Assembly (NCBI GenBank): GCA_030390025.1
Contig: CM059432.1
Span: 29,452,001 to 29,516,000 of the forward strand
DNA length: 64,000 nt
Direction of reading: 5' to 3'
Origin: Squalus acanthias
Taxonomy: Eukaryota
A program made the position numbers and the translations under genes. Of the stretch, positions 1 through 29,800 are shown piece after piece. The notes under the pieces are model-generated. The model was not told where the DNA came from. It made no database searches and saw only the letters and a list, made by a program, of their open reading frames with translations. How positions within the stretch are numbered: position 1 is the first letter of the stretch; every line of letters starts with the position of its first letter.

Positions 1-2
1 AC

Positions 3-448
3 TAACTTGTATTTATATAGTGGCTTTCGCAAGCCTCAGGACGCCCCAAAGCACTTTGCAACCAATGAAGTACTTTTACAGAAGTGTAGTCCCTGTTGTA
101 ATATAGAAAATGCAGCAGTGAATTTGCCCAGAGCAAGGTCCCACAAACAACAATGAGATAAATGATCAGATAATCTGTTTTAGTGGTGTTGGCTAAGGGA
201 TAAATATTGGCCAGGGCACTGGGGAGAATTCCCTTGCTCGTCGTCAAAATAATGCAATGGGATCATTTAAGTCCACCTGAGAGGGCAGATGGGGCCTCGG
301 TTTAGTGACTCATTTGAAAGATAGCACCTCCAATGGTGTAGCACTCCCTCAGTACTGCACTGGAGTGTAAGCCTAGATCTAATGCTCTGGAGTGGGATTT
401 GAACCCACAACCTTCTGCCTCAGAGGCGAAAGTGCTGCCACTGAACCA
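3..448 (-). mobile_element. tRNA-derived SINE, SacSINE1/DeuSINE-like, near full length
   Basis: The minus strand starts TGGTTCAGTGG (A box) and GGTTCAAATCC (B box). Central body CAGTGCAGTACTGAGGGAGTGCT; tail ...CTATATAAATACAAGTT. Body and tail match the copies at 6210, 9353 and 29425. Family name is from recall. Confidence 0.85.
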
Positions 449-616
449 GAAGCACTTCCGGACGCCATTGGAGGGCTTAATGAAACTCTCAGGACTGTTA
501 TAGTAAATCTGTCCTGGGACATCACATCCTACCACAGCAGGAATTTAGAAACACATCGAGGGCCATCCTGACAGGAATTCACACTGGCTCCCGAGTTTAC
601 CTTGCTGAAACAACAA

Positions 617-935
617 GGGCAACACAGTGGCATAGTGGTTAGCACTGTTGCCTCACAGCGCCAGGGACCCGGGTTCGAATCCGGCCTCAGGTGACTGTCT
701 GCGTGGAGTTTGCACATTCTCCCCGTGTCTGCGTGGGTTTCCTCCGGGTGCTCCGGTTTCCTCCCACAGTCCAAAGATGTGCAGGGTTAGGTTGATTTGG
801 CTATGATAAATTGACCCTTAGTGATAGGGGGATTTAATACGTGGGGTTACAGGGATAGGGTGGGATATGTGTCGGTGCAGGCTCGATGGGCCGAAATGGC
901 CTCTATCTGCACTGTGGGGATTCTGTGATTCTGTG
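617..935 (+). mobile_element. HE1-type V-SINE
   Basis: tRNA head (TGGCATAGTGG ... GGTTCGAATCC), V-domain TGGAGTTTGCACATTCTCCCCGTGTCTGCGTGGGTTTCCTCCGGGTGCTCCGGTTTCCTCCCAC, CR1-like 3' end (TCGATGGGCCGAAATGGCCTCT) and (GATTCTGT)n tail. Confidence 0.9.
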
Positions 936-1279
936 AAACCAGTGGCCTTAATCCAATGACACACTCATCAGTTTTCTGAACCTTGGCTTATTTACACTTC
1001 GGAGCGCAACTGATGGCAGGAGATCTGCAGACCTGCCACCAATTACACTCCAATAGTGTAAAAATGCACCTTTATGCGTGCCACTCATTTGCCTCTTTCA
1101 AGGTTGAAAAACTCAAGTACCTGTCTTGAAATCCATGTCCCTCAGATGAAAGGATACCATCTGGCCCACTGCATCATCCAATCCCTCTGTACTGTTGATT
1201 TTTGAACCTTTTTATTTCAAGCGGCACTGTCTTCCTAAAATTTGTTGTTTCTTTTGGGAAATAAAAAGAGATGAACACT

Positions 1280-1545
1280 AAAATTAGCCTCAGCATCCCT
1301 GTGCAGGGGCAGGGGAGAAATCAGGTGGGTCCAGCCAGTGAGTGTGCACGTGTGCATGGGCAGATGAGGACAGGAACGTGCTCAGTTATAATTCTCTCCA
1401 CAGTCAAATAGCCTGCCAACGCTCATTGTTGGACTCCCGCATGAAGAATAGGCAGTTGGTGGAAGTATCGGAGGGGCCCGTGGAACTGTACCCGAGCACG
1501 GATAAGTGACACCTTTAGGGGAGGAAGGGAGAAACTTGAGAAAAA
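1280..1545 (+). mobile_element. old degenerate interspersed repeat (probable SINE), family unassigned
   Basis: Shares GCCTGCCAAC and CATGAAGAAT(A)GGC motifs with the reverse complement of 4990-5325. Confidence 0.4.
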
Positions 1546-1749
1546 AAATTAACACATTGAACCTAAAACTTGCTGAATTGTAGTATGTTCAAGATCTTGG
1601 CTTCTCCTCTGATGTAATCCAATTAATGAGACCACAGCAATGACCTCACCCTTCCAAAATATTTTTGGATAATTTTCATCAATATTAAGGACGTTGATAA
1701 TAAGATGCCCTGCATCAGTACTGCTGGGTCAAGATGAGGCTACAGTGTG

Positions 1750-1860
1750 TTTTGTGGTAGGTGTGACCTATACAAAAGGGACGGTCTACACCTGTGCAAA
1801 GATGGAACTGATGTTCTCGGGGTAATTTTTGATAAAGCAGTTCGGGAGCATTTAAACTAG
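1750..1860 (+). pseudogene. C-terminal fragment of CR1 ORF1 (SGNH esterase-like domain)
   Basis: Translates FCGRCDLYKRDGLHLCKDGTDVLGVIFDKAVREHLN*. DGLH is the SGNH DxxH motif typical of vertebrate CR1 ORF1p. Stop TAG at 1858-1860. Confidence 0.85.
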
Positions 1861-1934
1861 TATGGCAGGGGGCTAGAAACCTATGTAGTGAAATAGAGGA
1901 AAGTGAAAGGCAGACAGAAATAAATGGTAAAAGG

Positions 1935-4802
1935 GTGAGGAACAAAAAACAAAGGGCCAAACTAATTCATAAAAAATGTGAGCATAAAAAAAGCCTGAGG
2001 GTTTTATACCTTAATGCGAGAAGCATCAGGAACAAGGTAGATGAATTAGCTGTGGAAATAGAGGTTAATAATTATGATCTAATTGGGATAACGGAAACAT
2101 GGTTGCAGGGTGAGCAGGGCTGGGAGCTTAACATACAGGGGTATTCAGTATTTAGGAAGGATCGACAAAAAAGAAAGGGAGGAGGGGTAGCATTGCTGGT
2201 AAAAGAAGGAATAAATGCAATTGAAAGGAAGGATATTAACTCAGTTAATACAGAATCTATATGGGTGGAGCTAAGAAATAGCGAGGGGCGAAAAACATTA
2301 ATAGGAGTGGTATATAGGCCTCCAAATAGTAAAATAGAGGTTGGGGAGGGCATCACGAGGGAAATTAGAGAAGCGTGCAATAAGAGCACAGCTGTCATCA
2401 TAGGTGACTTTAACTTACATATAGATTGGAATAGCCTAATCAGTAAAAATAATGAGGAGGAGGAATTCCTTGAGTGTTTAAGGGATGGTTATCTGGATCA
2501 ATATGTCGAGGAACCAACTCGGGAACAGGCTATATTGGACTGGGTACTGTGCAATGAGAAGGGACTAATTAGTAATCTTGTTGTACGGGGACCCTTGGGT
2601 CAGAGCGATCATAACATGATCGATTTCTCACTCGAAATGGAGAGCGAAGAAATTGACTCAGATACTAAGGTCCTGAATTTAAACAAGGGGAATTATGATG
2701 CCATTAGACGGGAACTGAGTAGGTCTGATTGGACAACGTTCCTGGGAGGACTGGAGGTAAATAAACAATGGCAAGCATTTAAAGATAGAATGACAAAATT
2801 GAAAAAATTGTTTATACCAATCTGGCATAAAAGGAAATCTAAAAAGGTGACTCAACCGTGGATAACAGGGGAAATTAGAGACAGCATAAAATCCAAAGAT
2901 AGGGCGTATAAAATAGCCAAAAAAAGCGCCAGAGCGGAAGATTGGGAACAGTTTAAGATAGAGCAAAGGAGGACAAAGGGCTTAATCAAGAGGGGCAAAA
3001 TAGCTTACGAAAGCAAGCTGGCGGAAAATATAAAAACTAACTCCAAAAGCTTTTATAAGTATATCAAGAGGAAAAGACTGGTGAAAACCAAAGTTGGCCC
3101 ATTGCAGTCAGATACGGGGGAATATATAACGGGAAATAAGGAAATGGCAGACCAACTAAATGCATACTTTGGGTCAGTCTTTACGAAGGAAGACACAAAA
3201 AACCTCCCTGGGATATCGGGAAAAATAGGGACATTTGCAAAGGAGGAACTGACGCAAATCAATATCTCTAAGGATATGGTGTTAAGGAAGCTAAAGGGAT
3301 TGAAGGCGGACAAATCCCCAGGGCCTGATAACATGCATCCTAGGGTGCTGAAGGAGGTGGCCCTAGAGATAGCGGATGCACTAAGTATGATTTTTCAGAA
3401 TTCATTAGAATCGGGAACAGTGCCCATGGATTGGAGGGTAGCTAACGTTACCCCACTATTCAAAAAGGGGGGTAGGGAAAAAGCAGGTAATTACAGACCT
3501 GTAAGCCTTACATCAGTTGTGGGCAAAATGCTGGAGTCCATCATTAAGGATGAAATAGCGGAGCACTTAGCAAATGGGGACAGGATAGGACAGAGTCAAC
3601 ATGGATTTACAAAGGGTAAATCGTGCTTGACTAATCTATTGGAATTTTTTGAGGGAGTAACTGGTAAAATAGATGGGGGAGAGCCAGTAGATGTGGTGTA
3701 CCTGGACTTCCAAAAGGCCTTCGATAAGGTCCCACATAAAAGATTAGCAGGGAAAATTGAAGCTCATGGGATAAAGGGGAAAGTATTGACGTGGATAGAG
3801 AACTGGCTGTCAGCTAGAAAACAGAGAGTTGGAATAAACGGCTCATTTTCTGAATGGCAGGCAGTAACAAGTGGGGTACCACAGGGATCTGTCCTGGGTC
3901 CCCAGCTGTTCACAATTTACATTAATGACCTGGATCAGGGAGTCGGATGCAGCATTTCCAAATTTGCAGACGACACTAAACTAGGAGGGGGGGTGGGCTC
4001 AGAGGAGGAGACCAGGAAGCTCCAGAGCGATTTGGACAGACTGGGTGATTGGGCGGATAAATGGCAGATGCACTATAATGTGGACAAGTGCGAAGTTATC
4101 CACCTTGGGTGCAGGAACGGGAGGGCAAATTATTATTTAAATGGCAATAAATTGGGAGAGGGGGAAGTACAGAGAGACCTGGGTGTTCTTGTACACCAGT
4201 CACTGAAGGCGAGCATGCAGGTGCAACAGGCGGTCAAGAAGGCAAACGGTATGCTGGCCTTCATAGCAAAAGGGTTGGAATACAGGAACAGGGATACCTT
4301 GCTGCAGCTGTACAGGGCACTGGTGAGACCACACCTCGAGTACTGTGTACAGTTTTGGTCGCCTCATCTGAGGAAAGATGTTCTTGCCATGGAGGGGGTG
4401 CAGCGGCGATTCACCAGGCTGATACCAGGAATGGCGGGATTGACCTATGAGGAGAGACTATGTAGTTTAGGGATGTACACACTGGAGTTTAGAAGATTGA
4501 GAGGGGACCTCATAGAAGTGTATAAAATTCTGACAGGTCTAGACAGACTAGATGCAGAAGGAATGTTTCCCTTGGCGGGTGAGAACAGAACTAGAGGACA
4601 TAATTTAAGGATAAGGGCTAAACCATTTAGGACAGAAATGAGGGGGAATTTCTTCACTCAGAGGATGGTGAACCTGTGGAACTCATTGCCACAGAGGGCA
4701 GTGTACGCCAGCTCATTAAATATATTTAAGAGGGAATTAGATATATTTCTACAGGCAAAAGGGGTTAAGGGTTACGGAGAGAAGGCGGGGACGGGATACT
4801 GA
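1935..4802 (+). CDS. CR1 ORF2: AP endonuclease + reverse transcriptase (frame open from 1836; the track start is a GTG)
   Basis: Uninterrupted 955 aa. APE motifs YLNARS, ITETW, VYRPP, GDFN, SDH. RT motifs KSPGPD, YRPVSLTS, QHGF, YLDFQKAFD, GVPQGSVLGP, FADD. CR1 C-terminal domain RPHLEYCVQFWSP...TRGH...WNSLP. Confidence 0.95.
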   Translation: MRNKKQRAKLIHKKCEHKKSLRVLYLNARSIRNKVDELAVEIEVNNYDLIGITETWLQGEQGWELNIQGYSVFRKDRQKRKGGGVALLVKEGINAIERKDINSVNTESIWVELRNSEGRKTLIGVVYRPPNSKIEVGEGITREIREACNKSTAVIIGDFNLHIDWNSLISKNNEEEEFLECLRDGYLDQYVEEPTREQAILDWVLCNEKGLISNLVVRGPLGQSDHNMIDFSLEMESEEIDSDTKVLNLNKGNYDAIRRELSRSDWTTFLGGLEVNKQWQAFKDRMTKLKKLFIPIWHKRKSKKVTQPWITGEIRDSIKSKDRAYKIAKKSARAEDWEQFKIEQRRTKGLIKRGKIAYESKLAENIKTNSKSFYKYIKRKRLVKTKVGPLQSDTGEYITGNKEMADQLNAYFGSVFTKEDTKNLPGISGKIGTFAKEELTQINISKDMVLRKLKGLKADKSPGPDNMHPRVLKEVALEIADALSMIFQNSLESGTVPMDWRVANVTPLFKKGGREKAGNYRPVSLTSVVGKMLESIIKDEIAEHLANGDRIGQSQHGFTKGKSCLTNLLEFFEGVTGKIDGGEPVDVVYLDFQKAFDKVPHKRLAGKIEAHGIKGKVLTWIENWLSARKQRVGINGSFSEWQAVTSGVPQGSVLGPQLFTIYINDLDQGVGCSISKFADDTKLGGGVGSEEETRKLQSDLDRLGDWADKWQMHYNVDKCEVIHLGCRNGRANYYLNGNKLGEGEVQRDLGVLVHQSLKASMQVQQAVKKANGMLAFIAKGLEYRNRDTLLQLYRALVRPHLEYCVQFWSPHLRKDVLAMEGVQRRFTRLIPGMAGLTYEERLCSLGMYTLEFRRLRGDLIEVYKILTGLDRLDAEGMFPLAGENRTRGHNLRIRAKPFRTEMRGNFFTQRMVNLWNSLPQRAVYASSLNIFKRELDIFLQAKGVKGYGEKAGTGY

Positions 4803-4989
4803 ATTGGAGGATCAGCCATGATCTCATTAAATGGCGGAGCAGGCGCGAAGGGCCGGATGGCCTACTCCTGCTCCTATCTTCTATGTATCTATGTATCTAT
4901 ATAAGACTAGTGATGCTTAACATTTTTCGGCTGAGCATTTAACTGCTGCAGTATACTGCACAGAGTAACGTTGATGCTCTGAAGTTCTC

Positions 4990-5325
4990 TCGCTGACCCT
5001 TGCTAGGTAGAGTTTCATGAAGCCTCTAGTCCTCCAGCGCCATGTCTAAGTGGCCATTCTTCATGTGTGAATCTTGACAGTTGGCAGGCCAGTCCTCATC
5101 CAACGTCCTTGCTTTCCCGCAATGCGCTGGACGGCGAACAAGAGTGGGAACCACAGGTGATTTTTCCGCTTCCTGGTCCCTGGTCCAGGGTCATTCAAGC
5201 CATTTGTAGCAACCCCACCATGACCTGAGCCAAAGTCTGCTAACACAGCACAGACCAAGCAACAAACCTGTGACTTCCTGATCAGTATAGCTTCAAATCA
5301 AGTGCGTTTACCCATTAGGAGACTG
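4990..5325 (-). mobile_element. old degenerate interspersed repeat (probable SINE), same family as 1280-1545
   Basis: The minus strand carries GCCTGCCAAC and CACATGAAGAATGGCCACTT, shared with 1280-1545. Confidence 0.4.
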
Positions 5326-5375
5326 GAGTGGGAACAGGAGCTAGATAAAGAATTTTGATATAGCCCACCATCTGG

Positions 5376-5635
5376 GTTATATTGGATGCCAGGTTAAATG
5401 GGGTGCCAGCTGCATTGGGTACCAGGTTATATTGGATACCAGGTTATGTTGGGTACAGTTTATATTACCAGTTATATTATAGTACCCAATATAATCAGTA
5501 GCTAATATAACATGATACCCAACATAACCCAGTATGCAATATAACCAGTACTCAATATAGCCTGATACCCAATATAATCTGGTATCTAAAATAACGCCTT
5601 CTCTAGCATAACCCTTTACCCGATACAACCCAGTA
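5376..5635. repeat. degenerate ~18-20-bp minisatellite (core TACCCAATATAACC); orientation switches near 5475
   Basis: 5376-5475 repeats GGTTATATTGGATACCA; 5480-5635 repeats TACCCAATATAA. Confidence 0.75.
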
Positions 5636-6186
5636 CACTCCCCACCGCTTGCGGTGGGCTCATTGGTGATAACGTGATTTGCCCGCTATATGCGGTGGAC
5701 GGCAAAACTATAATAGATTGGTTGAACATATTACCAAGTACAGTCCCCAATCCTTTTTGAAGCCTCCTCACCACTGTGTACATATATGTCACTGTTTGAG
5801 GACTTTGCCACTTAGACTTCATCAGAGTTCCGCTGGTTGGAGCATTTGTAAGTCACTGAGTTGCAGTGGCTACGCAACAGCCAATGGCAATAAAGAAAGC
5901 ATTGAGCGACTTTAGTGCCCAATAAACCGAAGTCCAATTACCAAGAGAAAGGGCCGATTTCACAAGCAAACCCTTTCCCCAAGCTGACCTCCCACCTCCA
6001 AGATTTCGAAACAACAGTGTGTAAATCGGTAAATATAGGGGATTAATGAGGTGCGAAGAACTTATTGAATGTACATATTTTATAAGCAGAGCCTTTGTAA
6101 TTGACTCCTGTGGTAATGGCTAGCCCCAATTGCCGATATAGGTGGCTGCACGTGATAAGCGGGGACGAGATAAGTGGTGAGGACTG
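5636..6186. mobile_element. non-autonomous Tc1/mariner-pogo (Tigger-like) DNA transposon / MITE, 551 bp
   Basis: Left end CACTCCCCACCGCTT vs right end reverse complement CAGTCCTCACCACTT (12/15). TA on both sides (5634-35, 6187-88). Removing it restores a minisatellite unit. Confidence 0.6.
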
Positions 6187-6209
6187 TACCCAGAAAACCC
6201 ATTCTAAAT

Positions 6210-6595
6210 CATAATCTAAACTGACACTTCAGTGCAGTACTGAGGGAATGCTGCACTGTTGGAGGTGCCGTCTTTCGAATGAAATGTGAAACCGATGCCC
6301 TGTCTGCCCTCGCAGCTGGACGTAAAAGATCCCATGGCACTATGTCAAAGAAGAGATGGGGAATATTCCCGGTGTCCTGGCCAACATTTATCCCTCAACC
6401 AACATCGCTAAAACAGATAATCTGGTCATTTATTTAATTGCTGTTTGTGGGAATTTGCTGTGCACAAATTGGCTGCCGCGTTTCCAATATTACAAAAGTG
6501 CCTACGTTTCAAAAGTACCTCATTGATTGTGAAGTGCTTTGGAAGGTCTTGAGGTTGTGAAAGGCACTATATAAATACAAATTCTTTCTTTTTTT
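6210..6595 (+). mobile_element. SacSINE1/DeuSINE-like SINE, 5'-truncated
   Basis: Body CAGTGCAGTACTGAGGGAATGCTGCACTG...; tail AAGGCACTATATAAATACAAATTCTTTC; no tRNA head. Confidence 0.85.
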
Positions 6596-6840
6596 ATCCA
6601 AATAAGCCAATACCCAATATAACCTGGTATCCAATATAACTTGGTATCCAATATAATCTGGTATCCAATGTAATCTGGTACCTAATATAACCCTGTACTC
6701 AATATAACCCAGTACCCAACATAACCTCGTTCCCAATATAACCTGTACCCAATATATTTCATACCCAATATAACCTGAAACAACCTGGTGCAAAATATGT
6801 CAGTACCCAATATAACAATGCCCAGTATAAAGTGACAACC
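6596..6840 (+). repeat. continuation of the TACCCAATATAACC minisatellite
   Basis: Repeated (TGG)TA(C/T)CCAATATAACC units. Confidence 0.8.
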
Positions 6841-7097
6841 TGTGAAATCTGTAACCTATTTCACAATTTGTGACATCTTATGTGAAACATTTAATTAACT
6901 AGATAATGTAATATGATAGTTCTCAATGTTAAAAAAACTAAAATATCTCAGCCTCGATGTAATTTAAATGGAATGGCTGTTAGTGAATTATGAAAACCAG
7001 GTTGAAGTGGGTTAAAAAATAGAATAAAATTTGAATAAATAAGAGATAAAATGATAAGGCGCTGTAGAAATGCAAGCCTTGTCTTAAAAAAGAAAAG

Positions 7098-7240
7098 TAC
7101 TGGAAATCTGAAATTAAAAGAGAAAATGCTGCAAATACACAATGGGGCCTGCCTAACGAAGGCTCCCTATTGAAAAGTTTAGCCTGTTTTACTTCTTTCA
7201 GATGCTGATAGACCTGCCTCACTATTCCAGAATGTTCTGC
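7098..7240. mobile_element. highly degenerate copy of the palindromic Penelope-type mini-element seen at 30585-30828
   Basis: CTGGAAATCTGAAAT is the reverse complement of that element's tail. CAGATGCTG..AGACCTGC...TATTCCAGAAT matches its arm. Decayed core CTAACGA...GAAA. Confidence 0.55.
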
Positions 7241-8766
7241 CTAAAGAAGCATTTTTTTTTAGCTGGGAGTAAAGCCGGTTAAGTGGCTGCTGACACAGTG
7301 TGCTCGAGATGGGAAAACAGTTTCATTCCTCAGCACTAATACCCCTCTCCTCAACGAACACCAAAATTTCACCCAAAAAATAAAATCGTCTGAGTTTCTG
7401 ATCTTCTCCAACACGGTCAACTGATGGCCGCTGGGATATCAGTGATATTATAATTATTGCTTTTAGAGAAAAAAAATGTAATTATATAGATCCTATTAAG
7501 AACGATATCTAGCTTTCTTTTTCCTTCATGCCTTCCCAACATGTGCTCTATGTGCTGATCAGGTAGTTTGTATTTAGATATTACCCAGATTAAAGAGCAA
7601 GATATCAGGGAATTACTTTAAGTGCAAAAACATGAGCTATAATTTCTCTTTCGGATCTGGTAGCTACTGAGAGATGCAGCTACATGGATTGAAGGGTAAT
7701 AGTGTTGCTTACATCCTGTTACGGTTTATTAAGGATTTGACGCAGGCTGGTTGCTGCTGATGAAGCTACTGAACTCTCCTCACCATCTTTATGGGATGTG
7801 CAAGGAGCACATTAACCTCAAGAGCTGGCGCGATAATGTAAAGCTGGTTAAGTGGTTGAATTTTATCCATCTCTCGCCCACCCTCTTCCCCAACGTGAAC
7901 ATACACATATATCTCCGAAAGAAAGTTAATGACTTCACTGGCGCCAATCCCTTCAATACTTTTAAATATATACCTCAAGGCCTTCTTCTTCTTAGCAAAT
8001 TGGACTGTAACGAATCCTATTGAGTCACAGTGCCGCTATTCGAAGCAGATGGGTATGAGGAAGGCGACAAGGCCCAGTAAATGGGTTAGTTGGTTTGCAA
8101 CCATATAGATTGTTAACAAGGAAAGGAGGGGATCTATTCCTGTCAGTTTGAAGAGTTTGAGCACTTTTCCTTTTCACCTCTAGGATCCCAATTCCAAATG
8201 ACTGAGATTGGGTCCAGAAGAGAAGATTACCATCTTAGTTGGAAAAATGTCTCTAATTGACAGGTTTTGCTTGAGGGCCTCAGGCAGGTAGATCGGACCA
8301 CTGTTAGACTGAGGATTCTGAAGTAATACCATTCAGAAATTCACGTCCAAATTTCAAGATGATTCAAATACGGTACACAGGGAGTGAAAATCGAGATAAA
8401 GGTAATACATTAACGATGCCCTGATGAGCTGTCTTTAGCCAGTTTTGTAAACGGGTTGCAATATACCTATTATCTATATACCTATCTGTGTTTATAAAAC
8501 CATTGCATGCCACACTTCAGATGTTACACTTTGTTGAGAATGCAGAACAATCATTAAAAAAAAGACAAACGCCTGAAATTTTCAAGGGGTTCTCCCAATC
8601 TTCCGCTGTTTTTAATGTTTCTAAGGGGTCGACGCTGATTTTCTGCCAAAGTTACAGGGGGAGACCTGGAGAACCCCCACACAAATTCTGTCCCAAAGTT
8701 AATCAACACCAGGCGCTTCTGCCCTGGAGTCTAAAGCTGACAAAATTTACAGGGGAGATTTTAACC

Positions 8767-8900
8767 TTGATTGCAAAGGCCCTCCCAAAACTCCTTTGTT
8801 CTCCTCAGGAGTTTGCCAAACAATTACAATTACCTATTTCCTGCTTAAAGGGACAGAACAGGCTAAACACAGCCAGATCTTGACCGCTAACCATTAAAAA
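8767..8900 (+). repeat. ~135-bp direct repeat, copy 1 (copy 2 is split: 9306-9352 + 10371-10463)
   Basis: TTGATTGCAAAGGCC...CTCCTCAGGAGTT recurs at 9306; ACAATTACCTATTTCCTGCTTAAAGGGACAG..CAGGCTAAACACAG recurs at about 10390. Confidence 0.8.
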
Positions 8901-9352
8901 AAAAGCTGGAAGAAACTGTGGAGCAGTCGGTTAACATTGCTTGGGAGACTTATCTGGCGATGTCCTGCTCCCTTCCCGCGGTCGTCTATTTCAATCTGTT
9001 TTTCCGAGCAGGCGTCAAGGACATGCGCCGGAAAATGGTGGAGTCCTGCTTTAAAAATGCAGATTGGTCTCCGATTACATCATCAGGACCCAACTGGCAT
9101 TTTAACCAGTGGTCTGAGCGGGGAAGCTATTTTGGATTTTCGGAGAGCTGAAGTTAGCGAGAAGGGAGTGGTCCAGAAGATGCCAAAAATAGTAGGTTTA
9201 ACTTTTTTAAAAAAATCCTTTTGGGGCCTGAAGCAGCCGGAGAGCTTCTCCTGGCCCCACAAGGAAAGTTTTGGTCTCCCCTGCACTGGGCTCCCATCCC
9301 CCTCCTTGATTGCAAAGGCCTCCCCAAAACTCCCCAGTTCTCCTCAGGAGTT

Positions 9353-10367
9353 GTCAGTCGTGGCTCAGTGGGTAGCACTCTCACCGTGAGTCAGAAAGTT
9401 GTGGGTACAAGTCCCACTCCAGAGACTTCAGCACAAAAATCTAGGCTGGCACTCCGGGAGTACTGAGTACTGAGGGAGTGCTGCATTGTCGGAGGTGCCG
9501 TCTTTCAGATGGGACGTTAAACCGAGGCCCCCTCTGCTCTCTCAGATGGATGTAAAATATCCCTGGGCACTATTTGGAAGAAGAGCAGGGGAATTATCCC
9601 TGGTGTCCTGGCCAATATCTATCCGTCAATCAACATCACACCTGGAGATTTATGTACAGTTTTGGACTCTTTATCTAAGAGGGAGTGCAACAAAGGTTCA
9701 CCAGACTGGTTCCTGAGATGGGGGAATTGTCCTATGAGAAGAGATTGAGTAGACTAGGCCTATATTCTCTGGAGTTTAGAAGAATGAGAGGTGATCTCAT
9801 TGAAACATACAAAACTCTTACAGGGCTTGACAGGGTAGATGCAGGGAGGATGTTTCCCCTGGCTGGGGAGTCTAGAACCAGGGATCACAGTCTCAGAATA
9901 AGGGGTCGGCCATTTAGGACTGAGATGAGGAGAAATTTCTATACACAGAGGGTGGTGAATCTTTGGAATTCTCTACCCCAGAGAGCTGTGGAGGCTCAGT
10001 CGTTGAGTATATTCAAGACAGAGATCGACAGATTTTTATATATTAAGGGAATCAAGGGATATGGGGATAGTGCAGGAAAGTGGAGATGAGGTAGAAGATC
10101 AGCCATGATCTTATTGAATGGCGTAGCAGGCTCAAAGGGCCAAATGGCCTACTGCTGCTCTTATTTCTTATGTTCTTTTGTTCTTAAAACAGATTATTTG
10201 GTCATTATCACAGTGCTGTTTGTGGGAGCTTGCTGTGCACAAATTGGCTGCCACATTTCCTACATTACAACAGTGACTACGCTTCAAAAAGTCCTTCATT
10301 GGCTGTAAAGCACTTTGGGACATCCTGAGGTTGTGAAAGGCGCTATATAAATGCAAGTCTTTCTTTC
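9353..10367 (+). mobile_element. full-length SacSINE1/DeuSINE-like SINE interrupted by a CR1 fragment
   Basis: Head GTGGCTCAGTGGGTAGCACTCTC and body up to ...CAACATCAC (9639). Resumes TAAAACAGATTAT at about 10185 and ends AAGGCGCTATATAAATGCAAGTCTTTCTTTC. Confidence 0.9.
9640..10185 (+). mobile_element. CR1 3' fragment (ORF2 C-terminus + 3' UTR)
   Basis: VQQRFTRLVP...LYSLEFRRMRGDLIE...WNSLPQRAVEA, homologous to the ORF2 end at 4400-4802. CR1 3' UTR and (TTCTTATG)n-type tail. Confidence 0.92.
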
Positions 10368-12214
10368 ATTAGAAGTTTACAAAACAACTACAATTACCTA
10401 TTTCCTGCTTAAAGGGACAGGCCAGGCTAAACACAGGCAGAACTTGATGGCTATTCATTGAAACCATGCTGCCGACTTAACACTACACATGACCAATGCA
10501 ACAAGATAAGTTCTGTTTATTTACTAAAAGTGCTAGAGGCATTAAAATGGTAGAACAGCAAAGTGGCATCCGCAGTTGTTTTTATTATATTAACAGGCTT
10601 TATTATTTGGTCACTATCAATTCAATAAATATATAGATTGTCAACTAGAAACTTCAACACAGAGCTCCGTCTAACATCAGACTGAACACACAGCTCCGTC
10701 TAACACCAGACTGAACACACAGCTCCGTCTAACATCAGACTGAACACACAGCTCCCTCTAACATCAGACTGAACACACAGCTCTCTCTAACACCAGACTG
10801 AACACACAGCTCCGTCTAACACCAGACTGAACACAGAGCTCCCTCTAACACCAGACTGAACACACAGCTCCCTCTAACATCAGACTGAACACACAGCTCC
10901 CTCTAACATCAGACTGAACACACAGCTCTCTCTAACACCAGACTGAACACACAGCTCCCTCTAACACCAGAATGAACACACAGCTCCCTCGAACATCAGA
11001 CTGAACACACAGCTCCCTCTAACACCAGACCAAACACACAGCTCCCTCTAACACCAGACTGAACACACAGCTCCCTCTAACACCAGACCAAACACACAGC
11101 TCCCTCTAACACCAGACTGAACACACAGCTCTCTCTAACATCAGACTGAACACACAGCTCTCTCTAACATCAGACTGAACACACAGCTCCCTCTAACACC
11201 AGACTGAACACACAGCTCCCTCTAACATCAGACTGAACACACAGCTCTCTCTAACACCAGACTGAACACACAGCTCTCTCTAACATCAGACTGAACACAC
11301 AGCTCTCTCTAACATCAGACTGAACACACAGCTCCCTCTAACATCAGACTGAACACACAGCTCCCTCTAACATCAGACTGAACACACAGCTCCCTCTAAC
11401 ACCAGACTGAACACACAGCTCCCTCTAACACCAGACTGAACACACAGCTCCCTCTAACATCAGACTGAACACACAGCTCCCTCTAACATCAGACTGAACA
11501 CACAGCTCCCTCTAACACCAGACTGAACACACAGCTCCCTCTAACACCAGACTGAACACACAGCTCTCTCTAACATCAGACTGAACACACAGCTCCGTCT
11601 AACACCAGACTGAACACACAGCTCCCTCTAACATCAGACTGAACACACAGCTCCTTCTAACACCAGACTGAACACACAGCTCTCTCTAACATCAGACTGA
11701 ACACACAGCTCTCTCTAGCATCAGACTGAACACACAGCTCCCTCTAACACCAGACTGAACACACAGCTCTCTCTAACATCAGACTGAACACACAGCTCCC
11801 TCTAACATCAGACTGAACACACAGCTCCCTCTAACATCAGACTGAACACACAGCTCTCTCTAACATTAGACTGAACACACAGCTCCGTCTAACACCAGAC
11901 TGAACACACAGCTCCCTCTAACATCAGACTGAACACACAGCTCCCTCTAACATCAGACTGAACACACAGCTCCCTCTAACATCAGACTGAACACACAGCT
12001 CCCTCTAACATCAGACTGAACACACAGCTCCCTCTAACACCAGACTGAACACACAGCTCTCTCTAACACCAGACTGAACACACAGCTCCCTCTAACACCA
12101 GACTGAACACACAGCTCCCTCTAACACCAGACTGAACACACAGCTCCCTCTAACATCAGACTGAAATGAGAAGTCGCACAACACCAGGTTATAGTCCAAC
12201 AGATTTATTTAAAA

Positions 12215-12252
12215 TTACAAGCTTTCGGAGCTGTCGCACCTTCGTCAGGTAA
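12215..12252 (-). ncRNA. minimal type I hammerhead ribozyme motif (inverted arm, copy 1)
   Basis: Minus strand: UUAC-CUGACGA-A-GGUGC GACA GCUCC-GAAA-GC-UU-GUAA. Stem I UUAC/GUAA; stem II has one U-U mismatch. Confidence 0.7.
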
Positions 12253-12428
12253 AGGTACAATGAGTGAATCTACAATATTGCACAGTATATAAACACAGAA
12301 ACTGCAGAGATACAATCTTTCAGGGAGGCCTTACATCAAAGACACACCAGAGCACAGCCAAGACAATGAGATGAGTCACAGAGGGTCCAACGTGTCAAAT
12401 CCTGCTGTCTGCAGTTTAACCCTTTTTT

Positions 12429-12941
12429 TTTAAGCAGCCGCCAAACCTCAAAATTACCATCGTTCGCAGCAAATTACCCAGCTGTCAGGAGAACAGCGAC
12501 CACGACACCACACAACCCTGCCACGGCAACCTCTGCAAGACATGCCAGATCATGAACACAGATACCGTCATCACACGTGAGGGCACTACCCACCAGGTAC
12601 ATGGTACATATTCATGTGACTCGGCCAACGTTGTCTACCTGATACGTTGCAGGAAAGGATGCCCCAGAGCATGGTACATCGGCGAGACCATGCAGACACT
12701 GAGACAACGTATGAACGGACACCGCACAACAATCGCCAGGCAGGATTGTTGCCTCCCAGTCGGGGAACACTTCAGCAGTCAAGGACATTCAGCCTCGGAG
12801 CTGCGGGTTAGCGTTCTCCAAGGCGGCCTTCGAGACACATGACAACGCAAAATCATCGAGCAGAAACTGATAGCCAAGTTCCGCACCCATGAGGACGGCC
12901 TCAATAGGGATATCGGGTTCATGTCACGCTACAGAACGTGA
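12429..12941 (+). pseudogene. Penelope linker + GIY-YIG endonuclease with premature stop
   Basis: FKQPPNLK...PCHGNLCKTC...VVYLIRCRKGCPRAWYIGET...RMNGHR. TGA at 12840, after which the frame continues QRKIIEQKLIAKFRTHEDGLNRDIGFMSRYRT*. Confidence 0.9.
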
Positions 12942-13162
12942 CTCGACATCGTTGTCTGTCTTTCCAGTTTTTAAAAAAAACACCAAAAAAAAGGGTTAAA
13001 CTGCAGACAGCAGGATTTGAAACGTTGGACCCCCTGTGACTCATCTCATTGTCTTGGCTGTGCTCTGGTTTGTCTTTGATGTAAGGCCTCCCTGAAAGAT
13101 TGTATCTCTGCAGTTTCTGTGTTTATATACTGTGTAATATTGTAGATTCACTCATTGTACCT

Positions 13163-13200
13163 TCACCTGACGAAGGGGCGACGGCTCCGAAAGCTTGTAA
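13163..13200 (+). ncRNA. minimal type I hammerhead ribozyme motif (direct arm, copy 1)
   Basis: UCAC-CUGACGA-A-GGGGC GACG GCUCC-GAAA-GC-UU-GUAA, with palindromic AAGCUU in place of stem III. Confidence 0.75.
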
Positions 13201-16200
13201 TTTTAAATAAATCTGTTGGACTATAACCTGGTGTTGTGCGACTTCTCATTTTTGTCCACCCCAGTCCAACACCGGCATCTCCGCATCATAACATCAGACT
13301 GAACACACAGCTCCCTCTAACACCAGACTGAACACACAGCTCCCTCTAACATCAGACTGAACACACAGCTCCCTCTAACATCAGACTGAACACACAGCTC
13401 CCTCTAACATCAGACTGAACACACAGCTCCCTCTAACATCAGACTGAACACACAGCTCCCTCTAACATCAGACTGAACACACAGCTCCGTCTAACATCAG
13501 ACTGAACACACAGCTCCCTCTAACACCAGACTGAACACACAGCTCCCTCTAACATCAGACTGAACACACAGCTCCCTCTAACACCAGACTGAACACACAG
13601 CTCCCTCTAACATCAGACTGAACACACAGCTCTCTCTAACATCAGACTGAACACACAGCTCCCTCTAACATCAGACTGAACACACAGCTCCCTCTAACAT
13701 CAGACTGAACACACAGCTCCCTCTAACATCAGACTGAACACACAGCTCCCTCTAACATCAGACTGAACACACAGCTCCCTCTAACATCAGACTGAACACA
13801 CAGCTCCCTCTAACACCAGACTGAACACACAGCTCCCTCTAACATCAGACTGAACACACAGCTCCCTCTAACACCAGACTGAACACACAGCTCCCTCTAA
13901 CATCAGACTGAACACACAGCTCCCTCTAACACCAGACTGAACACACAGCTCCCTCTAACATCAGACTGAACACACAGCTCCCTCTAACACCAGACTGAAC
14001 ACACAGCTCCCTCTAACACCAGACTAACACACAGCTCCCTCTAACACCAGACTGAACACACAGCTCCCTCTAACACCAGACTGAACACACAGCTCCCTCT
14101 AACACCAGACTGAACACACAGCTCCCTCTAACATCAGACTGAACACACAGCTCCCTCTAACACCAGACTGAACACACAGCTCCCTCTAACATCAGACTGA
14201 ACACACAGCTCCCTCTAACATCAGACTGAACACACAGCTCTCTCTAACATCAGACTGAACACACAGCTCTCTCTAACATCAGACTGAACACACAGCTCTC
14301 TCTAACACCAGACCAAACACACAGCTCCCTCTAACATCAGACTGAACACACAGCTCCTCTAACATCAGACTGAACACACAGCTCCCTCTAACATCAGACT
14401 GAACACACAGCTCTCTCTAACACCAGACTGAACACACAGCTCTCTCTAACACCAGACTGAACACACAGCTCCCTCTAACACCAGACTGAACACACAGCTC
14501 CCTCTAACATCAGACTGAACACACAGCTCCCTCTAACATCAGACTGAACACACAGCTCCCTCTAACATCAGACTGAACACACAGCTCCCTCTAACATCAG
14601 ACTGAACACACAGCTCTCTCTAACATCAGACTGAACACACAGCCCCTCTAACACCAGACTGAACACACAGCTCCGTCTAACATCAGACTGAACACACAGC
14701 TCCCTCTAACACCAGACTGAACACACAGCTCCCTCTAACATCAGACTGAACAGACAGCTCCCTCTAACACCAGACTGAACACACAGCTCCCTCTAACATC
14801 AGACTGAACACACAGCTCCCTCTAACACCAGACTGAACACACAGCTCTCTCTAACATCAGACTGAACACACAGCTCCCTCTAACACCAGACTGAACACAC
14901 AGCTCTCTCTAACATCAGACTGAACACACAGCTCTCTCTAACATCAGACTGAACACACAGCTCTCTCTAACATCAGACTGAACACACAGCTCCCTCTAAC
15001 ACCAGACTGAACACACAGCTCCCTCTAACATCAGACTGAACACACAGCTCTCTCTAACACCAGACTGAACACACAGCTCTCTCTAACATCAGACTGAACA
15101 CACAGCTCCCTCTAACACCAGACTGAACACACAGCTCCCTCTAACATCAGACTGAACACACAGCTCTCTCTAACATCAGACTGAACACACAGCTCCATCT
15201 AACATCAGACTGAACACACAGCTCCCTCTAACACCAGACTGAACACACAGCTCCCTCTAACACCAGACTGAACACACAGCTCCCTCTAACATCAGACTGA
15301 ACACACAGCTCCCTCTAACATCAGACTGAACACACAGCTCCCTCTAACACCAGACTGAACACACAGCTCCCTCTAACACCAGACTGAACACACAGCTCCC
15401 TCTAACACCAGACTGAACACACAGCTCCCTCTAACATCAGACTGAACACACAGCTCCCTCTAACACCAGACTGAACACACAGCTCCCTCTAACATCAGAC
15501 TGAACACACAGCTCCCTCTAACATCAGACTGAACACACAGCTCCCTCTAACACCAGACTGAACACACAGCTCCCTCTAACACCAGACTGAACACACAGCT
15601 CCCTCTAACATCAGACTGAACACACAGCTCCCTCTAACATCAGACTGAACACACAGCTCCCTCTAACATCAGACTGAACACACAGCTCTCTCTAACATCA
15701 GACTGAACACACAGCTCCTCTAACATCAGACTGAACACACAGCTCCCTCTAACACCAGACTGAACACACAGCTCCCTCTAACACCAGACTGAACACACAG
15801 CTCCCTCTAACACCAGACTGAACACACAGCTCCCTCTAACATCAGACTGAACACACAGCTCCCTCTAACACCAGACTGAACACACAGCTCCCTCTAACAT
15901 CAGACTAAACACACAGCTCCCTCTAACATCAGACTGAACACACAGCTCCCTCTAACACCAGACTGAACACACAGCTCCCTCTAACACCAGACTGAACACA
16001 CAGCTCCCTCTAACATCAGACTGAACACACAGCTCCCTCTAACATCAGACTAAACACACAGCTCCCTCTAACATCAGACTGAACACACAGCTCTCTCTAA
16101 CATCAGACTGAACACACAGCTCTCTCTAACATCAGACTGAACGCACAGCTCCCTCTAACATCAGACTGAACACACAGCTCCCTCTAACATCAGACTAAAC

Positions 16201-18886
16201 ACACAGCTCCCTCTAACATCAGACTGAACACACAGCTCTCTCTAACATCAGACTGAACACACAGCTCCCTCTAACATCAGACTGAACACACAGCTCCCTC
16301 TAACATCAGACTGAACACACAGCTCTCTCTAACACCAGACTGAACACACAGCTCCCTCTAACATCAGACTGAACACACAGCTCTCTCTAACACCAGACTG
16401 AACACACAGCTCTCTCTAACATCAGACTGAACACACAGCTCCCTCTAACACCAGACTGAACACACAGCTCCCTCTAACATCAGACTGAACACACAGCTCT
16501 CTCTAACATCAGACTGAACACACAGCTCCATCTAACATCAGACTGAACACACAGCTCCCTCTAACACCAGACTGAACACACAGCTCCCTCTAACACCAGA
16601 CTGAACACACAGCTCCCTCTAACATCAGACTGAACACACAGCTCCCTCTAACATCAGACTAAACACACAGCTCCCTCTAACACCAGACTGAACACACAGC
16701 TCCCTCTAACACCAGACTGAACACACAGCTCCCTCTAACACCAGACTGAACACACAGCTCCCTCTAACATCAGACTGAACACACAGCTCCCTCTAACACC
16801 AGACTGAACACACAGCTCCCTCTAACATCAGACTAAACACACAGCTCCCTCTAACATCAGACTGAACACACAGCTCCCTCTAACACCAGACTGAACACAC
16901 AGCTCCCTCTAACATCAGACTGAACACACAGCTCCCTCTAACATCAGACTAAACACACAGCTCCCTCTAACATCAGACTGAACACACAGCTCTCTCTAAC
17001 ATCAGACTGAACACACAGCTCTCTCTAACATCAGACTGAACACACAGCTCCCTCTAACACCAGACTGAACACACAGCTCCCTCTAACATCAGACTGAACA
17101 CACAGCTCCCTCTAACACCAGACTGAACACACAGCTCCCTCTAACATCAGACTGAACACACAGCTCCCTCTAACACCAGACTGAACACACAGCTCCCTCT
17201 AACATCAGACTGAACACACAGCTCCCTCTAACATCAGACTGAACACACAGCTCCCTCTAACACCAGACTGAACACACAGCTCCCTCTAACACCAGACTGA
17301 ACACACAGCTCCCTCTAACATCAGACTGAACACACAGCTCCCTCTAACATCAGACTGAACACACAGCTCCCTCTAACATCAGACTGAACACACAGCTCTC
17401 TCTAACATCAGACTGAACACACAGCTCCTCTAACATCAGACTGAACACACAGCTCCCTCTAACATCAGACTGAACACACAGCTCCCTCTAACATCAGACT
17501 GAACACACAGCTCCCTCTAACATCAGACTGAACACACAGCTCTCTCTAACATCAGACTGAACACACAGCTCCCTCTAACATCAGACTGAACACACAGCTC
17601 CCTCTAACATCAGACTGAACACACAGCTCTCTCTAACACCAGACTGAACACACAGCTCCCTCTAACACCAGACTGAACACACAGCTCCCTCTAACATCAG
17701 ACTGAACACACAGCTCCCTCTAACACCAGACAGAACACACAGCTCCCTCTAACACCAGACTGAACACACAGCTCCCTCTAACACCAGACCTAACACACAG
17801 CTCCCTCTAACACCAGACTGAACACACAGCTCTCTCTAACATCAGACTGAACACACAGCTCCCTCTAACATCAGACTGAACACACAGCTCCCTCTAACAC
17901 CAGACTGAACACACAGCTCCCTCTAACATCAGACTGAACACACAGCTCTCTCTAACACCAGACTGAACACACAGCTCTCTCTAACATCAGACTGAACACA
18001 CAGCTCTCTCTAACATCAGACTGAACACACAGCTCCCTCTAACATCAGACTGAACACACAGCTCCCTCTAACATCAGACTGAACACACAGCTCCCTCTAA
18101 CACCAGACTGAACACACAGCTCCCTCTAACACCAGACTGAACACACAGCTCCCTCTAACATCAGACTGAACACACAGCTCCCTCTAACATCAGACTGAAC
18201 ACACAGCTCCCTCTAACACCAGACTGAACACACAGCTCCCTCTAACACCAGACTGAACACACAGCTCTCTCTAACATCAGACTGAACACACAGCTCCGTC
18301 TAACACCAGACTGAACACACAGCTCCCTCTAACATCAGACTGAACACACAGCTCCTTCTAACACCAGACTGAACACACAGCTCTCTCTAACATCAGACTG
18401 AACACACAGCTCTCTCTAGCATCAGACTGAACACACAGCTCCGTCTAACACCAGACTGAACACACAGCTCTCTCTAACATCAGACTGAACACACAGCTCC
18501 CTCTAACATCAGACTGAACACACAGCTCCCTCTAACATCAGACTGAACACACAGCTCTCTCTAACATTAGACTGAACACACAGCTCCGTCTAACACCAGA
18601 CTGAACACACAGCTCCCTCTAACATCAGACTGAACACACAGCTCCCTCTAACATCAGACTGAACACACAGCTCCCTCTAACATCAGACTGAACACACAGC
18701 TCCCTCTAACACCAGACTGAACACACAGCTCCCTCTAACACCAGACTGAACACACAGCTCCCTCTAACACCAGACTGAACACATAGCTCCCTCTAACACC
18801 AGACTGAACACACAGCTCCCTCTAACATCAGACTGAAATGAGAAGTCGCACAACACCAGGTTATAGTCCAACAGATTTATTTAAAA

Positions 18887-18924
18887 TTACAAGCTTTCGG
18901 AGCTGTCGCACCTTCGTCAGGTAA
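18887..18924 (-). ncRNA. minimal hammerhead motif (inverted arm, copy 2)
   Basis: Identical to 12215-12252. Confidence 0.7.
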
Positions 18925-19100
18925 AGGTACAATGAGTGAATCTACAATATTGCACAGTATATAAACACAGAAACTGCAGAGATACAATCTTTCAGGGAGG
19001 CCTTACATCAAAGACGCACCAGAGCACAGCCAAGACAATGAGATGAGTCACAGAGGGTCCAACGTGTCAAATCCTGCTGTCTGCAGTTTAACCCTTTTTT

Positions 19101-19613
19101 TTTAAGCAGCCGCCAAACCTCAAAATTACCATCGTTCGCAGCAAATTACCCAGCTGTCAGGAGAACAGCGACCACGACACCACACAACCCTGCCACGGCA
19201 ACCTCTGCAAGACATGCCAGATCATGAACACAGATACCGTCATCACACGTGAGGGCACTACCCACCAGGTACATGGTACATATTCATGTGACTCGGCCAA
19301 CGTTGTCTACCTGATACGTTGCAGGAAAGGATGCCCCAGAGCATGGTACATCGGCGAGACCATGCAGACACTGAGACAACGTATGAACGGACACCGCACA
19401 ACAATCGCCAGGCAGGATTGTTGCCTCCCAGTCGGGGAACACTTCAGCAGTCAAGGACATTCAGCCTCGGAGCTGCGGGTTAGCGTTCTCCAAGGCGGCC
19501 TTCGAGACACATGACAACGCAAAATCATCGAGCAGAAACTGATAGCCAAGTTCCGCACCCATGAGGACGGCCTCAATAGGGATATCGGGTTCATGTCACG
19601 CTACAGAACGTGA
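19101..19613 (+). pseudogene. Penelope linker + GIY-YIG endonuclease with premature stop, copy 2
   Basis: Same translation as 12429-12941, including the TGA at 19512. Confidence 0.9.
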
Positions 19614-19834
19614 CTCGACATCGTTGTCTGTCTTTCCAGTTTTTAAAAAAAACACCAAAAAAAAGGGTTAAACTGCAGACAGCAGGATTTGAAACGTTGG
19701 ACCCCCTGTGACTCATCTCATTGTCTTGGCTGTGCTCTGGTTTGTCTTTGATGTAAGGCCTCCCTGAAAGATTGTATCTCTGCAGTTTCTGTGTTTATAT
19801 ACTGTGTAATATTGTAGATTCACTCATTGTACCT

Positions 19835-19872
19835 TCACCTGACGAAGGGGCGACGGCTCCGAAAGCTTGTAA
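19835..19872 (+). ncRNA. minimal hammerhead motif (direct arm, copy 2)
   Basis: Identical to 13163-13200. Confidence 0.75.
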
Positions 19873-29092: not shown

Positions 29093-29424
29093 GGATACCA
29101 TATCATACAATCTGGGTGGGCGGAGAGAAATTTGGGGTGGAATCTTAAAGACATTGGTGAGTTAGTTAAGTTTTTAATGGTAACTTTTCTGGTACCAGCC
29201 CACAATTTACCAGCTTTATTCAATACACTTCCATAACCTCAGGTGTTTCCGCCGCACTTATGCCGAAGTTACAGCAGCGGAGCGGGAGAATCTCAGAGGA
29301 AATTCACCCCCCCCGATGCCTCTACACTCAACGTGGCTCAGATTGGGAACTGAGGGGAATGGGCCTGAGATTTTCTGATGGCAAAGCATCCCCTTTCTAA
29401 GGGGATCTGATGGGAATGACAGAA

Positions 29425-29800
29425 CTGAGGAAGTGCTGCATTGTCAGGTGCCATCTTTCGGATGAGACGTTAAACCGAGGCCCCATCTGCCCTCTCAGGT
29501 GGATGTAAAAGATCCCATGGCACTATTCCGAAGAACAGCGGGGTAGTTCTCCCCGGTGTATTGGCCAATATTTATCCCTCAGCCGACTTAATAAAAAAAA
29601 ACAGATAATCTGGTCTTTATCACATTGCTGTTTGTAGGACCTTGCTATGTGAAAATTGGCTGCCACATTTCCTAGATTACAACAGTGACTACACTTCAAA
29701 AGTGCTTCATTGGCTGAAAAGCAGTGCTTCATTGGCTTTAAAACGCTTTAGAACATCCTGAGGTTGTAAAAGGTGCTATATAAATGCAAGTCTTTCTTTC
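29425..29800 (+). mobile_element. SacSINE1/DeuSINE-like SINE, 5'-truncated
   Basis: Body and tail as at 6210 and 9353, with a small internal duplication AGTGCTTCATTGGCT x2. Confidence 0.85.

What the first reader, a model, noticed from the sequence alone, without database searches (positions are those of the whole stretch)
1836..1935. Canonical -1 frameshift slippery site (U_UUA_AAC) at the CR1 ORF1/ORF2 junction; ORF2 has no usable AUG
Seen: ORF1 ends CAT TTA AAC TAG (1849-1860), so T TTA AAC is an X XXY YYZ heptamer in the ORF1 frame immediately before the stop. A -1 slip gives TTT AAA CTA GTA TGG CAG GGG..., the ORF2 frame, which is open from 1836 to 4802. The first in-frame ATG falls after the APE SDH motif. 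Established: U_UUA_AAC is the coronavirus ORF1a/1b slippery sequence. Inference: ORF2p is made as an ORF1(esterase)-APE-RT fusion by programmed frameshifting, gag-pol style, unlike L1 termination-reinitiation. I see no clear downstream pseudoknot; the adjacent UAG could supply the pause. ORF overlap in CR1s has been noted before, so novelty needs a literature check.
Basis: partly seen in the sequence, partly recalled or inferred. Interest (0 to 1): 0.75.

Follow-up and report, generated by a model that had tools for sequence, protein, structure and literature searches.

The report
CR1 LINEs frameshift like retroviruses
This jumping gene (a CR1-type LINE) ends its first gene with a seven-letter 'slippery' sequence, and its second gene starts one base back with no start codon; distant relatives keep a slippery site at their own junctions, so ribosomes likely slip back one base to make a fused protein, which would explain how one of the commonest vertebrate transposons makes its copying enzyme.

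Summary
Confirmed: T TTA AAC (1851-1857) lies in the ORF1 frame directly before TAG; the -1 frame is open for 988 codons (APE+RT), first ATG at codon 261. The copy is 5'-truncated at ~1749 (36 ORF1 codons left), so it cannot itself make the fusion. Relatives fetched by the endonuclease, not by the motif, make the case: 56 of 65 junctions overlap in -1; 23 of 24 esterase-ORF1 loci carry a canonical heptamer (U_UUA_AAC, U_UUU_UUA, once A_AAA_AAU), with fixed synonymous bases while neighbouring conserved codons are scrambled. Families with an unrelated ORF1 use A_AAA_AAC or G_GAA_AAC; the same xKN peptide is slippery in 14 of 14 loci where it lies in the overlap, 2 of 9 where it does not. No downstream structure in the window; a G-run 10 nt downstream is shared by vertebrate-type copies. 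Best reading (0.87): programmed -1 ribosomal frameshifting yields ORF1-APE-RT; untested experimentally. Not found in print for CR1 in ten searches (older papers unreadable); a -1 frameshift is stated for Dictyostelium TRE5-A/TRE3-A. The scan noted this before on other DNA (e1-8041403, e1-9568866).

The parts
1749..1860 (+). 3' remnant of ORF1 (last 36 codons of the SGNH esterase domain, DGLHL motif to ...HLN stop); 5' truncation point of this copy at about 1749
   Evidence: 61% identity to P0124; depth step and loose ends at 1749
1851..1857 (+). Slippery heptamer T TTA AAC in the ORF1 frame; predicted -1 shift site, predicted junction peptide H-L-N / L-V-W-Q-G
   Evidence: conservation
1858..1860 (+). 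ORF1 stop codon TAG directly after the heptamer (TAG or TGA in relatives; always Leu in the -1 frame)
1868..1872 (+). GGGGG run starting 10 nt after the heptamer; candidate stimulatory element, function unknown
   Evidence: same place in 5 of 6 vertebrate-type junctions, background 2 of 1194
1836..4802 (+). ORF2 frame (-1 to ORF1), 988 codons without a stop; about 47-codon linker from the heptamer to the endonuclease; first ATG at 2616
2013..2621 (+). APE endonuclease domain (PF03372, PF14529)
3471..4103 (+). Reverse transcriptase domain (PF00078)
4803..4903 (+). 3' UTR ending in about three copies of an 8-nt unit (TCTATGTA-like); 3' end of the insertion
   Evidence: two other 3' fragments in the window end alike

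Best explanation
This is a 5'-truncated copy of a CR1-type LINE whose ORF1 ends in the slippery sequence U_UUA_AAC plus a stop, with an AUG-less ORF2 one base back, and in full-length elements a minority of ribosomes likely slip -1 there to make an ORF1(esterase)-endonuclease-reverse transcriptase fusion, as retroviruses make Gag-Pol. Shown: the phase, the open -1 frame, the missing AUG, and nucleotide-level conservation of canonical heptamers across divergent families and across unrelated ORF1 types. Inferred: tandem slippage of the Leu and Asn tRNAs, a large excess of ORF1p over fusion, and stimulation in vertebrate-type elements by the adjacent stop and/or the G-run 10 nt downstream rather than by a local pseudoknot. 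Not shown: any protein, rate, or later cleavage of the fusion.
For: (1) Of 65 junctions with a homology-identified ORF1 end (64 of 88 fetched loci plus the window), 56 have ORF2 overlapping in -1. (2) Esterase-ORF1 group: 20 of 20 such overlaps hold a strict heptamer in the ORF1 frame, 15 of 15 after merging at 75% APE identity, 1.7 expected from synonymous resampling; three broken copies (L008, L069, L071) keep it too, so 23 of 24. (3) In 20 aligned rows Leu is TTA 20 of 20, Phe TTT 11 of 11, Asn AAC 10 of 10 and the preceding wobble base T 20 of 20, while conserved D, G, L, H, G upstream use all codons (38% identical codons in 1847 same-residue pairs). LN and FL elsewhere in these ORF1s are slippery in 3 of 55 and 1 of 19 cases. 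(4) Natural control in the unrelated PHD/RRM-type ORF1 group: the xKN[LYE] peptide 51-80 codons from the end is xxA AAA AAC in 14 of 14 loci where it lies in the -1 overlap and in 2 of 9 where the overlap begins further down; xEN[YF] is G GAA AAC in 9 of 9; GGA is a known tolerated XXX (PMC3542737). (5) No in-frame ATG before the first APE motif in 11 of 21 and 26 of 35 sites; where present its place varies; as little as 3 nt separate the last -1-frame stop from the heptamer, leaving no room for an upstream start. (6) Seven ray, skate, frog and unnamed ORF1 proteins end in LN, and two stingray gene models read through the junction as G-F-K-L; 68 of the 150 best ORF1 cluster representatives end in LN, 27 in FLx. 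(7) A conserved hairpin starts about 12 nt after U_UUU_UUA in 7 loci, 2 of 9 pairs with a two-sided change. (8) RNA reads and contigs show no listed indel or joint at the site.
Against: No stimulatory stem-loop or pseudoknot at 5-9 nt in the window or consistently in vertebrate-type relatives; mean folding z is near zero in the A_AAA_AAC and G_GAA_AAC groups (0.17, -0.48). Nine loci use a non-canonical G GGG GA[AC] at the homologous place and one esterase locus (L006) has ORF2 in +1 with no heptamer. Ten of 21 esterase sites do have an ATG in the linker. The loci are related, so counts are not independent events (31 clusters at 60% APE identity). All evidence is comparative; no protein or ribosome data. 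A search for long in-frame esterase-ORF2 fusion proteins found none among 204 candidates (weak).
Confidence: 0.87

Rival explanations
1. ORF2 is made as a separate protein by AUG-independent termination-reinitiation or near-cognate initiation (L1-like or SART1-like) after the ORF1 stop; the heptamer would be incidental.
For: Established for L1 and SART1 (PMC2881922, PMC3708506). GTG 1935, CTG 1995 and other near-cognate codons are in frame in the window; 10 of 21 esterase sites have a linker ATG.
Against: Does not explain fixed synonymous bases forming canonical heptamers, their replacement by other canonical heptamers in unrelated ORF1s, release of the constraint when the site moves, or a -1 frame kept open from the heptamer onward; in the PHD/RRM group the site lies up to about 70 codons before the ORF1 stop.
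Confidence: 0.06
2. The frame is changed at RNA level by polymerase slippage (an added base in a T or A run), not by the ribosome.
For: U6A and A6C contain homopolymer runs; two stingray gene models read through in frame at this point, which could reflect an added base in those copies or an annotation or assembly correction.
Against: U_UUA_AAC and G_GAA_AAC have runs of only 3-4; the motifs are locked to codon phase; no insertion is listed between 1803 and 1943 at a 5% threshold, with about 93 RNA reads deep at 1850-1870.
Confidence: 0.025
3. The motif is a 3' splice acceptor (pyrimidine run plus AG) that joins an upstream AUG exon to ORF2.
For: TTTAAACTAG and TTTTTTAG resemble acceptor sites (sequence, by eye).
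Against: Two vertebrate-type copies have TGA, not TAG, after the heptamer; A_AAA_AAC and G_GAA_AAC are not acceptor-like; one search lists no joint, loose end or depth step at 1860 in RNA reads.
Confidence: 0.015
4. The bases are conserved for another cis function (RNA packaging, termination efficiency, protein binding) and ORF2 is reached by an unknown route.
For: No classical stimulator in the window; a G-run of unknown role is conserved beside it.
Against: The conserved words differ between families and share only the property of allowing tandem -1 re-pairing.
Confidence: 0.03

Closest known systems
Viral -1 programmed ribosomal frameshifting (retroviral gag-pol, nidovirus ORF1a/1b)
   Same: X_XXY_YYZ heptamer in the zero frame, overlapping -1 ORF that encodes the polymerase, no own start codon (definition in PMC3542737, passages). 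That U_UUA_AAC is the coronavirus site and U_UUU_UUA the HIV-1 site is recalled (the latter also named in scan note e1-9568866).
   Different: Non-LTR element with no protease to cut the fusion; no stem-loop or pseudoknot 5-9 nt downstream in the window; stop codon directly after the site and a G-run at +10.
Dictyostelium TRE5-A / TRE3-A (APE-type non-LTR elements)
   Same: A review legend states that both require a -1 frameshift for ORF2 translation (PMC5911963, passage).
   Different: Different host kingdom and, as recalled, different clade (L1-like); the passage names no slippery site or experiment; primary papers not read.
L1 and SART1 ORF2 translation (termination-reinitiation)
   Same: Bicistronic LINE mRNA, ORF2 translation dependent on ORF1 translation (PMC2881922, PMC3708506, PMC5009743; passages).
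   Different: Those give a separate ORF2p from non-overlapping or stop-start ORFs; here the ORFs overlap in -1 with a conserved slip site, predicting a fusion.
Vertebrate CR1 with esterase ORF1 (type IVB, CR1 subgroup 7 of PMC4120745)
   Same: SGNH esterase ORF1, APE-RT ORF2, 5' truncation, short-repeat 3' tail.
   Different: The passages read from PMC4120745, PMC3905857 and PMC11835228 say nothing on how ORF2 is translated ('frameshift' 0 times in the first two).

Membership tests
-1 programmed ribosomal frameshift site | X_XXY_YYZ heptamer in the zero frame | tested here: met
   T TTA AAC 1851-1857
-1 programmed ribosomal frameshift site | Downstream ORF open in -1 from the heptamer, lacking its own start | tested here: met
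   no stop 1836-4799, first ATG codon 261
-1 programmed ribosomal frameshift site | Nucleotide-level conservation of the site beyond amino-acid need | tested here: met
-1 programmed ribosomal frameshift site | Stimulatory stem-loop or pseudoknot 5-9 nt downstream | tested here: not met
   window z 0.37-0.65, pseudoknot score not above shuffles; hairpins occur in some other families
-1 programmed ribosomal frameshift site | Trans-frame product or measured frameshift efficiency | not testable with these tools
   needs reporter, proteomics or ribosome profiling
CR1-clade LINE, esterase-ORF1 type | ORF2 with N-terminal APE and RT | tested here: met
CR1-clade LINE, esterase-ORF1 type | ORF1 with SGNH esterase | tested here: met
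   remnant 61% identical to the end of P0124 (PF13472); remnant alone has no Pfam hit
CR1-clade LINE, esterase-ORF1 type | 3' end in short tandem repeats, not poly(A) (hallmark recalled) | tested here: met
   8-nt unit at 4880-4903
CR1-clade LINE, esterase-ORF1 type | RT phylogeny with named reference CR1 elements | tested here: inconclusive
   quick tree of the ORF2 N-terminal part groups the window with stingray proteins (6 rows, SH-aLRT 100) near bird and frog ones; no record named CR1 was in the tree, the label CR1 is recalled
L1/SART1-type reinitiation junction | Non-overlapping ORFs or stop-start (UAAUG) coupling | tested here: not met
   25-nt -1 overlap; the ATG at 1862 after the stop is out of the ORF2 frame

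The most novel reading that the evidence does not exclude
A large part of the CR1 clade, from sharks and birds to non-vertebrate hosts, expresses its reverse transcriptase as a Gag-Pol-like fusion by -1 frameshifting, has rebuilt a slippery site each time ORF1 was replaced or the junction moved (at least four heptamers plus a non-canonical G_GGG_GA[AC]), and in vertebrates drives the shift with a new structure-poor signal (stop codon plus G-run at +10) open to host anti-frameshift factors.
Probability: 0.6. Interest if true: 0.85.

Novelty: new variant of a known kind. Interest (0 to 1): 0.75.

Why it matters
How two-ORF LINEs translate ORF2 is called unclear in the literature read (PMC3708506), with reinitiation shown only for L1 and SART1, and non-LTR organisation has been taken to mean ORF1p must stay separate from ORF2p (same paper). 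CR1 is the most abundant repeat of the chicken genome (11.8%, PMC11835228). If right, the active enzyme is an esterase-APE-RT fusion, ORF2 annotations starting at the first Met are wrong, engineered CR1 assays must keep the junction intact, and a 100-nt cassette gives a direct test plus a possibly new class of frameshift stimulator.

Tried and rejected
No whole genome was available for the window, so copies within the same genome were seen only through laid reads. Viral-contig scans gave no relatives. Rfam found nothing in 1-11000. Local folding, an H-type pseudoknot scan and a long-range duplex scan gave no shared stimulator for the six vertebrate-type junctions; a two-tier G-quadruplex is predicted in 3 of 6 but not in the window; an upstream hairpin ending at the heptamer is not above shuffles (z -0.71, -1.13). 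No target-site duplication was found with the boundaries tried. Search for long esterase-ORF2 fusion proteins: none. Per-base variation inside the heptamer could not be read because 72 rows were not shown. The careful tree did not finish; only the quick tree was used. 24 of 88 loci were dropped before counting because no ORF1 end could be identified by homology; L080 among them has G GGA AAC plus stop and was not counted. L076's counted hit (A_AAA_AAU) is probably not its real site, which lies upstream of a one-base break. Sequence look-up in the scan's notes found nothing.

Full report
Observation. Window 1849-1860 reads CAT TTA AAC TAG, so T TTA AAC (1851-1857) is an X XXY YYZ heptamer in the upstream frame, directly before its stop. 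The -1 frame is open from 1836 to 4802 (988 codons) and encodes an APE endonuclease (aa 60-262) and a reverse transcriptase (aa 546-756). Its first ATG is at 2616, codon 261, after the SDH motif. The 83-130 nt after the site fold no better than shuffles. The 36 remaining codons match the end of an SGNH-esterase ORF1 (22 of 36 identical to P0124). By itself the heptamer has a chance of about 0.003 at that place and 0.017 within the overlap.

What it is. A young CR1-type LINE (label recalled; intact ORF2, esterase ORF1, 8-nt tail repeat at 4880-4903). The nearest named proteins are from rays; in a quick tree the window sits with stingray sequences (6 rows, SH-aLRT 100), so the host is likely a cartilaginous fish (inference).

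Relatives. An alignment of the APE N-terminus fetched 80 metagenome loci (best 80 of 243 found in part of the collection) and 8 loci from genome records, without reference to the junction. ORF1 ends were assigned by protein homology for 64 of these 88; with the window, 65. They fall into two unrelated ORF1 types, esterase (24) and PHD/RRM-like (41). ORF2 overlaps ORF1 in -1 in 56 of 65. Five outlying loci in the tree (L053, L064, L065, L072, L084) have upstream in-frame ATGs and no heptamer. Hosts of the metagenome loci are not known; five group with bird proteins or end like them, the rest are probably non-vertebrate (inference).

Esterase group. All 20 loci with a -1 overlap carry a strict heptamer in the ORF1 frame: 10 U_UUA_AAC, 9 U_UUU_UUA, 1 A_AAA_AAU; 15 of 15 after merging at 75% APE identity, against 1.7 expected when ORF1 codons are resampled synonymously. 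Three broken copies keep it (L008, L069, L071); L006 lacks it and has ORF2 in +1. In 20 aligned rows the Leu codon is TTA 20 of 20, Phe TTT 11 of 11, Asn AAC 10 of 10, and the preceding wobble base T 20 of 20, whereas conserved residues of the DGLHL region use all synonymous codons, so shared descent alone does not explain the fixed bases. Seven further ORF1 proteins (ray, skate, frog, unnamed) end in LN and two stingray gene models read through as G-F-K-L, the -1 reading of the same heptamer. Among the best 150 cluster representatives found with an ORF1 profile, 68 end in LN, 27 in FLx, 7 in QGN and 3 in FFx, dipeptides that canonical heptamers can encode; their DNA was not seen and the profile itself ends in LN.

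PHD/RRM group. Of 36 overlaps, 17 have a strict heptamer (8.6 expected), 26 when GGA is allowed as XXX (12.8 expected), as PMC3542737 allows; 9 have G GGG GA[AC] at a homologous place where L051 has canonical G GGA AAC, and 1 has its site upstream of a break. This group holds a natural control: the conserved xKN[LYE] peptide 51-80 codons before the ORF1 stop is xxA AAA AAC in 14 of 14 loci (two are duplicates) where it lies inside the overlap, but in only 2 of 9 (three near-duplicates) where the overlap begins further downstream; xEN[YF] is G GAA AAC in 9 of 9; background rates for KN and EN are 11 of 65 and 7 of 60. The constraint follows the frame junction, not the protein.

Start codons. 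No in-frame ATG precedes the first APE motif in 11 of 21 esterase sites and 26 of 35 PHD/RRM sites; where present it lies at scattered distances. The last -1-frame stop can lie 3 nt before the heptamer.

Stimulator. Seven U_UUU_UUA loci share a 9-pair hairpin about 12 nt downstream, 2 pairs with a two-sided change, and L013/L014 have a strong hairpin at 6-8 nt (z -3.0, -3.5). The six vertebrate-type junctions have no shared hairpin, pseudoknot or long-range partner but 5 of 6 have GGGGG exactly 10 nt after the heptamer (background 2 of 1194). A two-tier G-quadruplex is predicted in 3 of 6, not in the window. The stimulator is therefore open: adjacent stop, G-run, or a bound protein (inference).

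Mechanism. Most likely, ribosomes translating ORF1 of a full-length RNA mostly stop at UAG; some slip -1 with Leu and Asn tRNAs on the heptamer and continue CUA GUA UGG, giving ORF1p-linker-APE-RT (inferred; 0.87). Reinitiation, polymerase slippage and splicing fit worse; one search lists no indel between 1803 and 1943 and no joint at the site, although 72 substitution rows were not shown and contigs drop rare variants.

Literature. Ten searches: 'CR1 + slippery + retrotransposon' gave 0 papers; 'CR1 + ribosomal frameshift + non-LTR' gave 1, whose frameshift passages in the held first half concern ALV-E; the broad searches listed only part of their hits (for example 30 of 120, 30 of 408, 40 of 115, 30 of 511, 40 of 465). 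Seen as keyword passages only: PMC5009743 (first 300,000 characters; CR1 0 times; LINE ORF2 ascribed to unusual initiation), PMC2881922, PMC3905857, PMC1925062, PMC5911963 (TRE5-A and TRE3-A 'require a -1 frameshift'), PMC5443660, PMC11835228, PMC4120745, PMC3542737, PMC1965478, PMC3708506. Kojima 2005 and Kapitonov and Jurka 2003 were not held; Haas 1997 and Kajikawa 1997 are recalled as describing closely spaced or overlapping CR1 ORFs and were not read, so an earlier mention of frameshifting in CR1 cannot be excluded. No supplements were read. Two earlier notes of this scan reached the same idea on other DNA; they were seen after the main tests and are not independent evidence.

Verdict. 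Real and far beyond chance once relatives are included; a known kind of mechanism in a class of element where it appears not to be established, with strong comparative support and no experimental proof. New variant of a known kind; interest 0.75.

Noticed in passing
L015, L022, L030, L033, L036, L037, L039, L040, L066 (start of ORF overlap): Invariant non-canonical G GGG GA[AC], preceded by rare TCG/ACG/GCG codons, at the place where L051 has canonical G GGA AAC; may be a single-tRNA or mismatch-tolerant -1 site.
   Followed up: partly
L006:922-972: Esterase-ORF1 element with intact ORFs in which ORF2 is in +1 and no heptamer is present; either a mutated copy or a switch to another shift.
   Followed up: partly
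L053, about 15 codons before the APE domain: 2A-like motif (ending NPGP) at the ORF2 N-terminus in an outlying element without ORF overlap, as described in PMC3708506.
   Followed up: no
L002, L004, L010, L012, L014, L016-L020, L031, L046, L082, L083: Esterase-type ORF1 in elements that group outside the vertebrate sequences, whereas PMC4120745 found it only in vertebrate subgroups; hosts unknown.
   Followed up: no
L081, L082, L083 and protein P0008: Animal-type LINE sequence inside records labelled as bacterial or archaeal genomes; likely host contamination.
   Followed up: no
window 611-940: SINE-like element with tRNA-like head and a short-repeat tail of CR1 type (by eye; family name not tested); single copy in the window.
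   Followed up: no
window 1-460, 6194-6583, 9361-9639, 10185-10358, 29420-29721: Another dispersed repeat with several 76-81% identical copies.
   Followed up: no
window 10656-23800 and 31374-64000: Long tandem arrays of 29-nt and 33-nt units; a 3' CR1 fragment is inserted in the second at 47416-47993 (-), another lies at 9679-10173 (+).
   Followed up: no
window 25266-27222 (+): A second, distant and decayed LINE ORF2 (21-28% identity to the first).
   Followed up: no
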